A stretch of DNA of 64,000 nt, taken from NCBI GenBank assembly GCA_022614965.1, contig JAKEHO010000082.1, positions 12,069 through 76,068 of the forward strand, given 5' to 3'. A program made the position numbers and the translations under genes. This document shows positions 12,506 through 13,321 of the stretch, one piece after another; within the stretch, counting starts at the first letter, position 1; every line of letters starts with the position of its first letter. The DNA is from Gammaproteobacteria bacterium. GTDB taxonomy: Bacteria > Pseudomonadota > Gammaproteobacteria > JAKEHO01. Under the pieces are notes generated by a model. It saw nothing but the letters and a program-made list of their open reading frames with translations, ran no database searches and had not been told where the DNA came from.

Positions 12506-12820
12506 TCAGGCAACCCGCACACCGAGCAGGACATCTTTTGCGCGTAACTCCCGCATGGACTCGAGCCCGCTATCGATGAGCAGCTCCGGCTTTCGATGTT
12601 GGAGTTCTTGGGCTATCGTGTCAAGCAATTCCCGGCCGGGCCATCCAGTCATCTCCTGAATCAGCTCGAGCAGCCGGGCCGCCGCTAAATTGAGCTCGAT
12701 ATATGCCACCTTGTCGCGCCGATCACGGAAGAGCAGCGAATGCGTCGCCTCCTTAGGAGGCTTTCGCGGTTTGTAGTTTGGGCTAATTCGATGGACGGAA
12801 AACGATACTTGAGGAGCCAT
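12506..12820 (-). pseudogene. C-terminal fragment of a DUF2063 (HvfC/BufC-like) RiPP maturation partner
   Basis: The 104-aa ORF matches only the C-terminal half of DUF2063 proteins (..LLFRDRRDKVAYIELNLAAARLLELIQE..GRELLDTIAQEL..). It is in the same frame as the DUF692 fragment upstream, 32 codons after that fragment's TAA. Confidence 0.6.
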
Positions 12821-12916
12821 GCCAGCGGGCTCAGCACTGGGACGCCGGCCAGACAGTGCTCTGGATCCCGAATATGGCGCGTAAATGCGTACTGGATTTA
12901 GGTAAATGTCGCGCGC

Positions 12917-13321
12917 TTATCCATGCTGTTTGATCCGCTCTGCTACGTAATGCGCCGCGTCCTCGGTGAAGGGGATAGGCAATAGATCATAGAGGTGGCC
13001 ATCGTCTGCACAGTAGCTTAAGTGCTCCCTGTAGCAGCGAACAGTGTACTCCACCAGGAATTGCTTGATGCGCTGAAGGTACGCTTCATCCAGCGGCGCT
13101 GGAGCGCCGAGATTCAACGACAGGCCGTGGCATATTAAGGGCCTGCGTTCGGTGATGGCCCGGAATCGACGTCCAAGGCGGCTACCCACATCGATCCTGA
13201 TCTCGGGCGCCACCTCCATAAAACTCACCGGCGAAGGCGCCTCCTCAGCAAGCGGGCCCAATAGGGCCCGCTTGCTGACCGAGATCTGCGCCCGGCACGG
13301 GGTATCGACGCTGCTCCACAA
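12917..13321 (-). pseudogene. N-terminal fragment of a DUF692 multinuclear non-heme iron oxidase (HvfB/BufB-like)
   Basis: FMEVAPE...[22 protein letters not shown]...[36 protein letters not shown] matches the first half of DUF692. It ends at TAA 12917-12919, and similarity continues about 20 codons past the stop (ARDIYLNPVRIYAPYS). TTG start, no SD. Confidence 0.65.

What the first reader, a model, noticed from the sequence alone, without database searches (positions are those of the whole stretch)
12506..13321. The RiPP maturase pair (DUF692 MNIO + DUF2063) has collapsed into one stop-interrupted remnant, leaving the precursor orphaned
Seen in sequence:
- Directly downstream of the precursor, the DUF692-like ORF covers only the N-terminal half of the family (..[39 protein letters not shown]..ERIKQ).
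- It hits an in-frame TAA at 12917-12919.
- About 20 more DUF692-like codons follow (ARDIYLNPVRIYAPYS).
- The same frame then runs straight into the C-terminal half of a DUF2063 protein (..LLFRDRRDKVAYIELNLAAARLLELIQE..).

Inference: roughly the C-terminal half of the oxidase and the N-terminal half of its partner were removed by a single internal deletion, and a nonsense mutation was acquired as well. The DUF692 fragment also lacks an ATG or SD and has EIR where relatives have ENW. The precursor gene is nevertheless undamaged. That suggests recent inactivation, trans-complementation by another MNIO pair elsewhere, or a maturase-independent role for the peptide.
Basis: partly seen in the sequence, partly recalled or inferred. 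Interest (0 to 1): 0.65.

Follow-up and report, generated by a model that had tools for sequence, protein, structure and literature searches.

The report
Decayed hvfB/hvfC peptide-maturase gene remnants
The two genes that chemically mature a copper-binding peptide (oxazolin/HvfA type) have been wrecked here by at least five separate mutations while the peptide gene beside them is intact: ordinary gene decay caught part-way, and apparently repeated independently in the closest known relative.

Summary
The remnants are real. On the minus strand, right after an intact HvfA-type precursor (13690-13334), lie the N-terminal half of the MNIO HvfB and the C-terminal domain of its partner HvfC. Two other read sets gave 100% identical assemblies, and 77 of 80 relatives carry full-length HvfB.

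- **The TAA at 12917-12919 is hvfB's own stop codon.** It overlaps hvfC's own ATG (12924-12922) in the ATGGATAA arrangement common in relatives. It is not a nonsense mutation.
- **The "20 DUF692-like codons" are hvfC's 5' end read out of frame.** In their own frame they read MDKRATFT*IQYAFTRHIRDPE.
- **There are two deletions, not one.** One removes about 147 codons inside hvfB and the other about 115 codons inside hvfC.

There is also a +1 frameshift in hvfB, a nonsense codon and a -1 frameshift in hvfC. The -1 frameshift creates the apparent single reading frame. A neighbouring acetolactate-synthase-like gene is also reduced to a stub.

The closest relative (contig L084) has different lesions in hvfB, no hvfC, and an intact hvfA. 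dN/dS indicates late, independent loss in both lineages. Whether hvfA still functions is unresolved. This is ordinary pseudogenisation of a known RiPP cluster and of modest interest.

The parts
13334..13690 (-). hvfA, an intact precursor of 118 aa. It has a Sec-type N-terminus ending ..PLANA/AENPF, three CGEGKCG pairs (6 Cys), and an AGGAGG about 9 nt upstream of the ATG.
   Evidence: NF050137 at 45.8 bits against a cut-off of 19.5. It aligns full length with 65 relatives, and its Cys-pair count equals that of L084. dN/dS against L084 is 0.116. The SD was read from the sequence.
13278..13319 (-). Original 5' end of hvfB in its own frame: GTG start, then EQRRYPVPGADLG. Relatives read M..YPV.GAGLGLRR.
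   Evidence: Three-frame printout, a weak tblastn hit of L004 HvfB residues 1-24, and the alignment.
13274..13277 (-). +1 insertion: four bases (CAGC) where relatives have one Leu codon.
   Evidence: Three-frame printout and comparison with the GAGLGLRRA motif of relatives.
12926..13273 (-). hvfB remnant, family positions ~15-130: [35 protein letters not shown].
   Evidence: tblastn gives 66-72% identity to intact HvfB of L006 and L004. The family HMM matches positions 15-130 at E=6e-58. Six of 57 columns that are >=90% conserved are violated, more than in any of 77 relatives.
12926..12931 (-). hvfB deletion junction. Family position ~131 is joined in frame to the last 2-4 codons, so about 147 codons (~440 bp) are lost.
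   Evidence: The alignment stops at AERIKQ and is followed by HG-stop, as at the C-terminus of relatives, e.g. L004 ..IRQQHG*.
12917..12919 (-). TAA, the native hvfB stop codon.
   Evidence: The CATGGATAA stop/start overlap and its 10-nt distance to the conserved Phe codon of hvfC match those of many relatives, which read CATGGCTGA or CATGGATGA.
12859..12924 (-). hvfC 5' end in its own frame: ATG 12924-12922, then MDKRATFT*IQYAFTRHIRDPE, with a nonsense TAA at 12900-12898 (codon 9).
   Evidence: tblastn of L006 HvfC residues 1-32 at E=7e-4 in the 64-kb search. HvfC family HMM positions 15-29. Three-frame printout.
12853..12858 (-). hvfC deletion junction. Family position ~30 is joined to ~145, so about 115 codons (~345 bp) are lost, including nearly all of the N-terminal HvfC_N/DUF2063 domain.
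   Evidence: One open piece (12897-12688) matches HMM positions 15-29 and 145-170 back to back, with whole-piece E=8.6e-8.
12797..12852 (-). Middle segment of hvfC, still in the hvfC frame: LAGVPVLSPLAWLLKYRFP.
   Evidence: tblastn against L004 HvfC residues 192-210, and HMM positions 145-170.
12796..12796 (-). -1 frameshift: CCG-TCC-ATC where CCG-GTC-CAT (P-V-H) is expected. It puts the rest of hvfC into the hvfB frame.
   Evidence: Three-frame printout against the consensus Y.YPVHRISP.
12506..12796 (-). hvfC C-terminal (HvfC_C/NGO1945_C, RRE-type) domain, running to its stop at 12508-12506. An ATG at 12820 opens a 104-aa ORF by accident.
   Evidence: PF22106 at E=1.6e-22 and NF050145 positions 129-236 of 237. 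HMM positions 148-258.
12131..12347 (-). Stub of an acetolactate-synthase-like (TPP enzyme) gene. Only residues ~476-544 of 544 remain, in two frames (frameshift near 12266). About 1.4 kb is lost.
   Evidence: NCBIfam NF006187 fragments. tblastn with the intact 544-aa gene of L006. The gene is intact between hvfC and the aldehyde dehydrogenase gene in L006, L024 and L057, and its start is intact in L084.
10660..12156 (-). Aldehyde dehydrogenase gene, intact. It is a conserved downstream neighbour in several relatives.
10059..10526 (-). hvfX (DoxX family), intact, 155 aa.
   Evidence: NF050144 at 143 bits against a cut-off of 80. 69% identity over residues 1-151 to the L061 homologue.

Best explanation
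**What the locus is.** It is a decaying hvf (oxazolin / Buf_EGKCG) RiPP gene cluster in an uncultured gammaproteobacterium. The ancestral order, still seen in relatives, was prfB-lysS-hvfA-hvfB-hvfC-(ALS-like)-(aldehyde dehydrogenase), with hvfX further downstream.

**What happened to it.**
- hvfB acquired a +1 frameshift near codon 15, an in-frame deletion of ~147 codons, and replacements of invariant residues.
- hvfC acquired a nonsense codon at codon 9, a deletion of ~115 codons and a -1 frameshift.
- The next gene lost ~1.4 kb.

**Why neither product can work.**
- The hvfB remnant keeps only the first two metal-ligand motifs ([10 protein letters not shown]). It lacks the ENxSYY, D.NNIYVN, H.AGH, DTHG and ERD motifs.
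- The hvfC remnant lacks the N-terminal domain.
- HvfA therefore cannot be converted to its thiooxazole form by this locus.

**What is shown and what is inferred.** The lesions, their independence from those in the closest relative, and the late timing are shown. Two things are inferred. The first is that relaxed selection on the maturase pair in this clade was followed by the usual bacterial deletion bias. The second is that hvfA is either still useful (unmodified, or modified in trans) or simply has not yet been hit. I rate those two possibilities about even.
For: - **Domain and family matches are confined to half-genes**.
- **Lesions were mapped base by base** against intact HvfB and HvfC of relatives.
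- **Relatives are full length.** 77 of 80 have full-length HvfB and 63 have full-length HvfC, in conserved prfB-lysS-hvfA-hvfB-hvfC synteny. The hvfB-to-hvfC spacing is ~927 bp in relatives against ~123 bp here.
- **Invariant residues are replaced.** Six of 57 conserved HvfB columns are violated, against a mean of 0.79 and a maximum of 5 in relatives.
- **The hvfB remnant evolves faster on the window branch.** It carries 17 derived changes in 123 sites, against 19 in 374 for lysS (Fisher p=0.002) and 6 in 111 for hvfA (p=0.046).
- **The sequence is reproducible.** It is identical in three assemblies from at least two read sets.
- **The closest relative decayed separately.** L084 has a 10-nt deletion, a TAG, W->C, and a deletion from DTHG through all of hvfC, with hvfA intact. 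dN/dS of the hvfB remnants is 0.145, against 0.089 for lysS, so constraint lasted for most of the divergence.
- **Published work requires both enzymes.** HvfA modification needs both HvfB and HvfC (PMC11252979). Single substitutions N175A, D242A or H244A abolish HvfB activity (10.64898/2026.07.17.739211).
Against: - No expression or read-level data are available.
- L084 is a single 3.7-kb Logan contig, so its small lesions could be errors. Its large deletion joining hvfB to the ALS-like gene is harder to explain that way.
- The exact breakpoints are ambiguous by a few bases.
- The excess of derived changes on the window branch over the L084 branch (17 against 9) is not significant on its own (p=0.17).
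- The mapping of metal-ligand motifs rests on my knowledge of MbnB and HvfB, not on a structure computed here.
Confidence: 0.93

Rival explanations
1. One deletion removed the C-terminal half of hvfB and the N-terminal half of hvfC together, fusing the two in frame. A nonsense TAA arose separately, and about 20 degenerate DUF692 codons follow it.
For: - The frame is continuous from 13321 to 12506 apart from the TAA.
- There is weak similarity of RDIYLNPVRIYAPYSG to RRIAIENVSYYAAPG, about 5 of 16 residues.
- A 12/15-nt match of CATGGATAAGCGCGC to the mid-gene sequence of L084 appears in a global DNA alignment.
Against: - The same bases in the other frame read FT*IQYAFTRHIRDPE. This matches every conserved residue of the HvfC N-terminal motif, and it continues in that frame into HvfC positions 145-170.
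- The HvfB family HMM does not hit the stretch after the TAA even with filters off.
- The ATGGATAA stop/start overlap and its spacing to the Phe codon are those of intact relatives.
- The shared frame is explained by a 1-nt deletion at 12796.
Confidence: 0.03
2. Assembly or sequencing artefact. About 0.8-2 kb of real sequence was collapsed, and the genes are intact in the organism.
For: The source is a metagenome-assembled genome, and no reads could be inspected.
Against: - Three assemblies from at least two runs are identical base for base over the locus.
- The region is not repetitive.
- At least seven separate lesions, plus six replacements of invariant residues, cannot come from one collapse.
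- The rest of the window is 91% covered by long ORFs and shows no other broken patch.
Confidence: 0.02
3. The remnants are functional short proteins. In particular, a stand-alone 104-aa HvfC_C (RRE-type) domain could still bind HvfA as a chaperone or regulator.
For: - The C-terminal domain is complete, covering Pfam positions 7-93 of 93, and has an ATG.
- Its conserved columns are not unusually damaged: 3 of 25, with 9 of 63 relatives showing at least 3.
- HvfC alone binds HvfA in vitro (PMC11252979).
Against: - The ORF exists only because of a frameshift inside a gene that also carries a nonsense codon and a deletion.
- No Shine-Dalgarno motif lies upstream of ATG 12820.
- No such short form is found among the 80 relatives.
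- L084 has lost hvfC altogether.
- Little damage is expected anyway if the inactivation is recent.
Confidence: 0.04

Closest known systems
hvf operon of nontypeable Haemophilus influenzae (HvfA oxazolin precursor, HvfB MNIO, HvfC partner, HvfX DoxX); PMC11252979, 10.64898/2026.07.17.739211
   Same: - The same four gene families are present (NCBIfam HvfA-family domain, HvfB, HvfC, HvfX).
- The precursor has a signal peptide and six Cys in three (A)EGKCGEGKCG repeats.
- The MNIO gene directly follows the precursor gene, and the partner gene overlaps its stop codon.
   Different: - hvfB and hvfC are pseudogenes here.
- hvfX is separated from the cluster by two unrelated genes, instead of lying beside hvfA.
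- The precursor scores below the Haemophilus equivalog model NF050188 (31.7 against a cut-off of 95).
- The host is an uncultured environmental gammaproteobacterium.
Buf_EGKCG/oxazolin precursors found without MNIO genes in complete genomes (Microb Genom 2025, PMC12452194, Table 3: 67 of 2583 genomes; a further 56 lack the partner gene)
   Same: An EGKCG precursor is left without a working cognate maturase pair at its locus. The authors offer the same alternatives: a PTM-independent activity, modification in trans, or a precursor that is no longer functional.
   Different: - Here the dead maturase genes are still recognisable, so the route to orphanhood can be read: deletions, frameshifts and a nonsense codon.
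- A sister lineage shows a second, independent instance.
- Whether this genome has another MNIO elsewhere is unknown.
Intact syntenic clusters in related Gammaproteobacteria MAGs (e.g. L004 OY282354.1, L006 JAKZTI010000073.1, L024 JAJFKL010000025.1)
   Same: - Gene order is prfB-lysS-hvfA-hvfB-hvfC, followed in L006, L024, L035 and L057 by the ALS-like gene and the aldehyde dehydrogenase gene.
- HvfB N-terminal-half identity is 62-72%.
   Different: Relatives encode HvfB of 280-305 aa and HvfC of 249-282 aa. The window has lost about 2.2 kb of the corresponding 3.4 kb.

Membership tests
HvfB family MNIO (NCBIfam NF003818; Pfam PF05114) | Significant match to the family profile | tested here: met
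   PF05114 at E=2.5e-31 and NF003818 at E=4.5e-45, but only over profile positions 10-122 of 263 and 7-124 of 264.
HvfB family MNIO (NCBIfam NF003818; Pfam PF05114) | Full-length protein reaching the curated equivalog score | tested here: not met
   154.3 bits against a cut-off of 360. The remnant covers family positions ~15-130 of ~285, and 77 of 80 relatives are 280-305 aa.
HvfB family MNIO (NCBIfam NF003818; Pfam PF05114) | Complete set of iron-ligand motifs (CHGLS, EHLS, ENxSYY, D.NNxYVN, H.AGH, DTHG, ERD) | tested here: not met
   Only CHGLS and EHLS remain. The rest lie in the deleted segment. The assignment of these motifs as ligands is from my knowledge of MbnB and HvfB. Substitutions of N175, D242 and H244 are shown to be inactivating in 10.64898/2026.07.17.739211.
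HvfB family MNIO (NCBIfam NF003818; Pfam PF05114) | Uninterrupted reading frame from the native start | tested here: not met
   A +1 insertion at 13274-13277 separates the native 5' end (GTG 13319) from the rest of the gene.
HvfC family RiPP maturation partner (NF050145; PF09836 + PF22106) | C-terminal HvfC_C/NGO1945_C domain | tested here: met
   PF22106 at E=1.6e-22, covering profile positions 7-93 of 93.
HvfC family RiPP maturation partner (NF050145; PF09836 + PF22106) | N-terminal HvfC_N/DUF2063 domain and the equivalog score | tested here: not met
   80.3 bits against a cut-off of 142. Only family positions ~1-29 of the N-terminal part survive, with a stop at codon 9.
HvfA-family (Buf_EGKCG/oxazolin) precursor | KCGExKCG repeat domain (NF050137) | tested here: met
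   45.8 bits against a cut-off of 19.5. Three CGEGKCG pairs and 6 Cys.
HvfA-family (Buf_EGKCG/oxazolin) precursor | N-terminal Sec signal peptide | tested here: inconclusive
   The N-terminus MSRRSTLKPIAAAIGTTFAVSLAAAPLANA/AENPF aligns with the conserved N-terminus of 65 relatives. No signal-peptide predictor was available.
HvfA-family (Buf_EGKCG/oxazolin) precursor | Cys residues converted to 5-thiooxazole by HvfBC | not testable with these tools
   This needs mass spectrometry or UV of the native peptide. The locus itself cannot supply the enzymes.
HvfX (DoxX-type) protein | Curated equivalog score | tested here: met
   NF050144 at 143.2 bits against a cut-off of 80.

The most novel reading that the evidence does not exclude
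HvfA-type peptides may have a role that does not need their cognate maturase. For example, the unmodified Cys-rich peptide could act as a secreted copper or thiol buffer, or it could be modified by an enzyme encoded elsewhere. On this reading, selection keeps hvfA (and hvfX) after hvfBC is lost. Two sister lineages that destroyed hvfBC independently while keeping a six-Cys hvfA evolving at dN/dS ~0.12 would be the footprint of that.
Probability: 0.3. Interest if true: 0.5.

Novelty: new member of a known kind. Interest (0 to 1): 0.27.

Why it matters
- **Annotation.** The 100-aa "MNIO" and 104-aa "HvfC_C" gene calls already in public protein collections (P0001 and its neighbour) are pseudogene fragments. 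They should not be counted as a working RiPP cluster or used as "short MNIO" examples.
- **RiPP biology.** The locus gives a legible intermediate for how EGKCG precursors become orphans, which the MNIO survey reports in about 2.6% of genomes that carry such a precursor. It also offers a pair of lineages in which to test whether the precursor stays under selection without its enzymes.
- **Limit of the claim.** Beyond that, this is routine bacterial gene decay.

Tried and rejected
- **Shared lesion with L084.** I looked for an inactivating lesion common to the window and L084, which would date the loss to their common ancestor. None was found. The 5' indels differ (+1 against a 10-nt deletion), the stop codons differ, and the invariant Trp is changed differently (AGG against TGC). 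One shared damaged column is expected by chance with probability ~0.29.
- **ORF intactness of hvfA as evidence of selection.** From the lesion density in hvfBC, I estimate by hand a probability of roughly 0.1-0.2 that hvfA would be unhit by chance in both lineages. That is suggestive only.
- **Metagenome scan with LysS for a closer relative**. Nothing exceeded 70% identity, and 57 of 59 informative loci have no hvf genes after lysS. The scan gave no help on timing.
- **P0030 and P0033.** These are 133-aa HvfB proteins ending at the same ..RIRR.. point, which hinted at a deletion hotspot. They are full genes split into two ORFs, not deletions.
- **PDB sequence search with the HvfC part.** No hit.
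- **Promoter scan of 12000-14000.** No sigma-70-like site. Three terminator-like sites were found against 1.7 expected, which is uninformative.
- **Second MNIO or partner gene.** None in the 64-kb window by tblastn and by family HMMs with filters off. None among the called genes of contig positions 3111-82725.

Full report
**Layout.** All genes of interest are on the minus strand. In order they are:
- prfB (16507-15509) and lysS (15418-13925);
- a 118-aa precursor (13690-13334);
- a DUF692/MNIO fragment (13321-12920), then a TAA (12919-12917);
- the same frame running on into an HvfC C-terminal domain (12820-12506);
- two short fragments of an acetolactate-synthase-like gene (12347-12131);
- an aldehyde dehydrogenase gene (12156-10660) and a DoxX gene (10526-10059).

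NCBIfam names the four families as HvfA-family (NF050137, above cut-off), HvfB (NF003818, positions 7-124 of 264, far below cut-off), HvfC (NF050145, positions 129-236 of 237, below cut-off) and HvfX (NF050144, above cut-off). Pfam agrees: PF05114 covers positions 10-122 of 263 and PF22106 covers 7-93 of 93.

**Not an artefact.** The window is part of contig CCZKQX010000023.1 of MAG GCA_973794095.1. Logan assemblies of two runs, SRR16971104 and SRR16971108, carry the same gene set. They are 100% identical to the window over 6.8 and 5.9 kb with no mismatch or gap. The rest of the window is densely coded, with 91% covered by long ORFs. The only decayed patch is 12131-13321.

**What relatives look like.** A scan of species-representative genomes with the HvfB fragment gave 80 loci, almost all from uncultured Gammaproteobacteria and at most 72% identical.
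- About 55 of them share the order prfB-lysS-hvfA-hvfB-hvfC.
- 77 encode a full HvfB of 280-305 aa, and 63 encode a full HvfC of 249-282 aa.
- The distance from the end of the HvfB N-terminal-half match to the start of the HvfC C-terminal match is ~927 bp in relatives and ~123 bp in the window. About 800 bp is therefore missing.
- In L006, L024, L035 and L057 a 544-aa ALS-like gene and the aldehyde dehydrogenase gene follow hvfC. The window keeps only the last ~70 codons of that ALS-like gene, split by a frameshift.

**Re-reading the junction.** I ran tblastn of intact HvfB and HvfC against the window, printed all three frames, and searched with family HMMs. Together these change the anatomy.

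1. *The TAA is native.* The hvfB alignment ends at ..AERIKQ (12926) and is followed by HG-TAA. Many relatives end HvfB with ..HG* encoded as CATGG(N)TGA or TAA, with the hvfC ATG embedded in it and the conserved Phe codon of hvfC 7-13 nt further on. The window has CAG-CAT-GGA-TAA with an ATG at 12924-12922 and that Phe codon 10 nt after the stop. The TAA is therefore the native hvfB stop. hvfB carries an in-frame deletion of ~147 codons that joins family position ~131 to its last few codons.
2. *The hvfC 5' end survives.* From that ATG the hvfC frame reads MDKRATFT*IQYAFTRHIRDPE-HC-LAGVPVLSPLAWLLKYRFP. The first part is the HvfC N-terminus (consensus F...QY.FT.H.RDP) with a TAA at codon 9. The second part is HvfC positions ~145-165. 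The HvfC HMM matches this single open piece at positions 15-29 and 145-170 back to back, at E=8.6e-8. This is a second, separate deletion of ~115 codons.
3. *A -1 frameshift creates the single frame.* At 12796 one G is missing: CCG-TCC-ATC where CCG-GTC-CAT (P-V-H) is expected. This moves the remaining HvfC_C domain into the hvfB frame and produces the illusion of one continuous frame.
4. *A +1 frameshift hides the hvfB start.* At the 5' end of hvfB the native frame reads GTG(13319)-EQRRYPVPGADLG, where relatives read M..YPV.GAGLGLRR. Four bases (13277-13274) then stand where one Leu codon is expected.
5. *The stretch after the TAA is not DUF692-like.* The HvfB HMM does not hit ARDIYLNPVRIYAPYS even with filters off.

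**Degree and timing of decay.** In the retained hvfB part, 6 of 57 columns that are at least 90% conserved are violated. The changes are G->D in GAGLG, R->K, N->I and W->R in ENW, G->S, and G->A in GGPAP. That is more than in any of the 77 intact relatives, whose mean is 0.79 and maximum 5.

The closest relative found is L084, a 3.7-kb Logan contig from SRR9822615 (lysS 80% nt and 85% aa identity).
- It reads lysS, then an intact 111-aa hvfA with the same six Cys, then an hvfB remnant, then the ALS-like gene.
- Its hvfB has a 10-nt deletion near codon 20, a GAG->TAG stop and ENW->ENC.
- It also has a deletion running from the DTHG motif through all of hvfC to just before the ALS-like start.
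- None of these lesions is shared with the window.

| Gene (window vs L084) | dN/dS (NG86) | dS | Window-derived / L084-derived aa changes |
|---|---|---|---|
| lysS | 0.089 | 1.05 | 19 / 17 |
| hvfA | 0.116 | 0.83 | 6 / 5 |
| hvfB remnant | 0.145 | 0.86 | 17 / 9 |

The dN/dS values are. hvfB was therefore constrained for most of the time since the split, and it died late and separately in each lineage. The amino-acid changes were polarised with the other relatives. The window-branch rate in hvfB exceeds that in lysS (Fisher p=0.002) and that in hvfA (p=0.046), while hvfA does not differ from lysS (p=0.81).

**Function.** Published work shows that HvfA is modified only when both HvfB and HvfC are present, and that HvfC binds HvfA (PMC11252979). 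The modification has been reassigned to 5-thiooxazole. Single substitutions of N175, D242 or H244 abolish HvfB activity (10.64898/2026.07.17.739211). The window's hvfB keeps only the CHGLS and EHLS motifs and lacks the entire C-terminal half of the barrel. hvfC lacks its N-terminal domain. The locus therefore cannot mature HvfA.

**Status of hvfA.** hvfA looks fully serviceable. It has an AGGAGG upstream, an N-terminus conserved with 65 relatives, and three CGEGKCG pairs. hvfX is also intact. This is compatible with continued use, either unmodified or modified in trans. It is equally compatible with hvfA simply not having been hit yet. From the lesion density in hvfBC, I estimate by hand a probability of roughly 0.1-0.2 that hvfA would be intact by chance in both lineages. 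No second MNIO or partner gene exists in the window or among the called genes of contig positions 3111-82725. The rest of the genome could not be searched.

**Comparison with what is known.** The MNIO survey (PMC12452194, Table 3) found Buf_EGKCG precursors without any MNIO gene in 67 of 2583 complete genomes, and without a partner gene in 56 more. It proposed the same three explanations. This locus is therefore a degenerate member of a known cluster type. Its modest added value is that the remnants show the route to orphanhood and that the route was taken twice in sister lineages.

**Verdict.**
The half-genes, the TAA, the shared frame, EIR and the intact precursor all hold. The "DUF692-like codons after the stop" do not.
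Pseudogenes beside an orphaned precursor, with recent loss, hold. A single deletion and an acquired nonsense codon do not.
- Interest is low to moderate.

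Noticed in passing
window 12131-12347 (minus strand): A third gene remnant lies directly downstream of hvfC. Only the last ~70 codons of a 544-aa acetolactate-synthase-like TPP enzyme remain, split by a frameshift near 12266. 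The gene is intact in L006, L024 and L057, and its start is intact in L084.
   Followed up: partly
L084 (Logan SRR9822615 contig, 3741 bp), 1327-2490: The closest relative has an intact 111-aa hvfA. Its hvfB is independently broken (10-nt deletion, TAG, ENW->ENC, truncation at DTHG), and hvfC is entirely deleted, so the remnant joins directly to the ALS-like gene.
   Followed up: yes
window 16529-16535 (minus strand): prfB carries the canonical programmed +1 frameshift site CTT-TGA-C. The upstream frame reads [28 protein letters not shown]. This is a normal RF2 autoregulatory site, not a defect.
   Followed up: partly
L085 6001-6857 and L086 979-1872: In two unrelated contigs HvfB is called as two ORFs (133+132 aa and 133+142 aa), split at almost the same residue (..RIRR..) as the window's deletion breakpoint. 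L085 has several other split genes, which suggests indel errors. The coincidence of position was not explained.
   Followed up: partly
L035 11690-14415: In this relative the ALS-like gene is split into 205-aa and 342-aa ORFs. An unrelated 337-aa gene plus a short ORF is inserted between it and the aldehyde dehydrogenase gene. This suggests that the ALS-like gene is prone to loss in this neighbourhood.
   Followed up: no
L087-L166 (metagenome loci found with LysS): Of 59 loci with enough downstream sequence, 57 have no hvf genes after lysS although LysS is 62-70% identical. The lysS-hvfA linkage is therefore confined to a subset of these Gammaproteobacteria.
   Followed up: partly
window 13326-13341 (minus strand): A weak 5-bp hairpin followed by a T-rich tract overlaps the hvfA stop codon. 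It could act as a terminator that now ends an hvfA-only transcript, but terminator-like sites are no more frequent in this region than in shuffled sequence.
   Followed up: no
window 13351-13587 (+) and the alternative frames of hvfA in relatives: The GAAGGNAARTGYGGN repeats of hvfA generate long spurious ORFs in other frames and on the opposite strand (for example KASAAKV.. repeats in L005, L024 and L035). These can be miscalled as genes or fused to hvfB in stop-to-stop translations.
   Followed up: no
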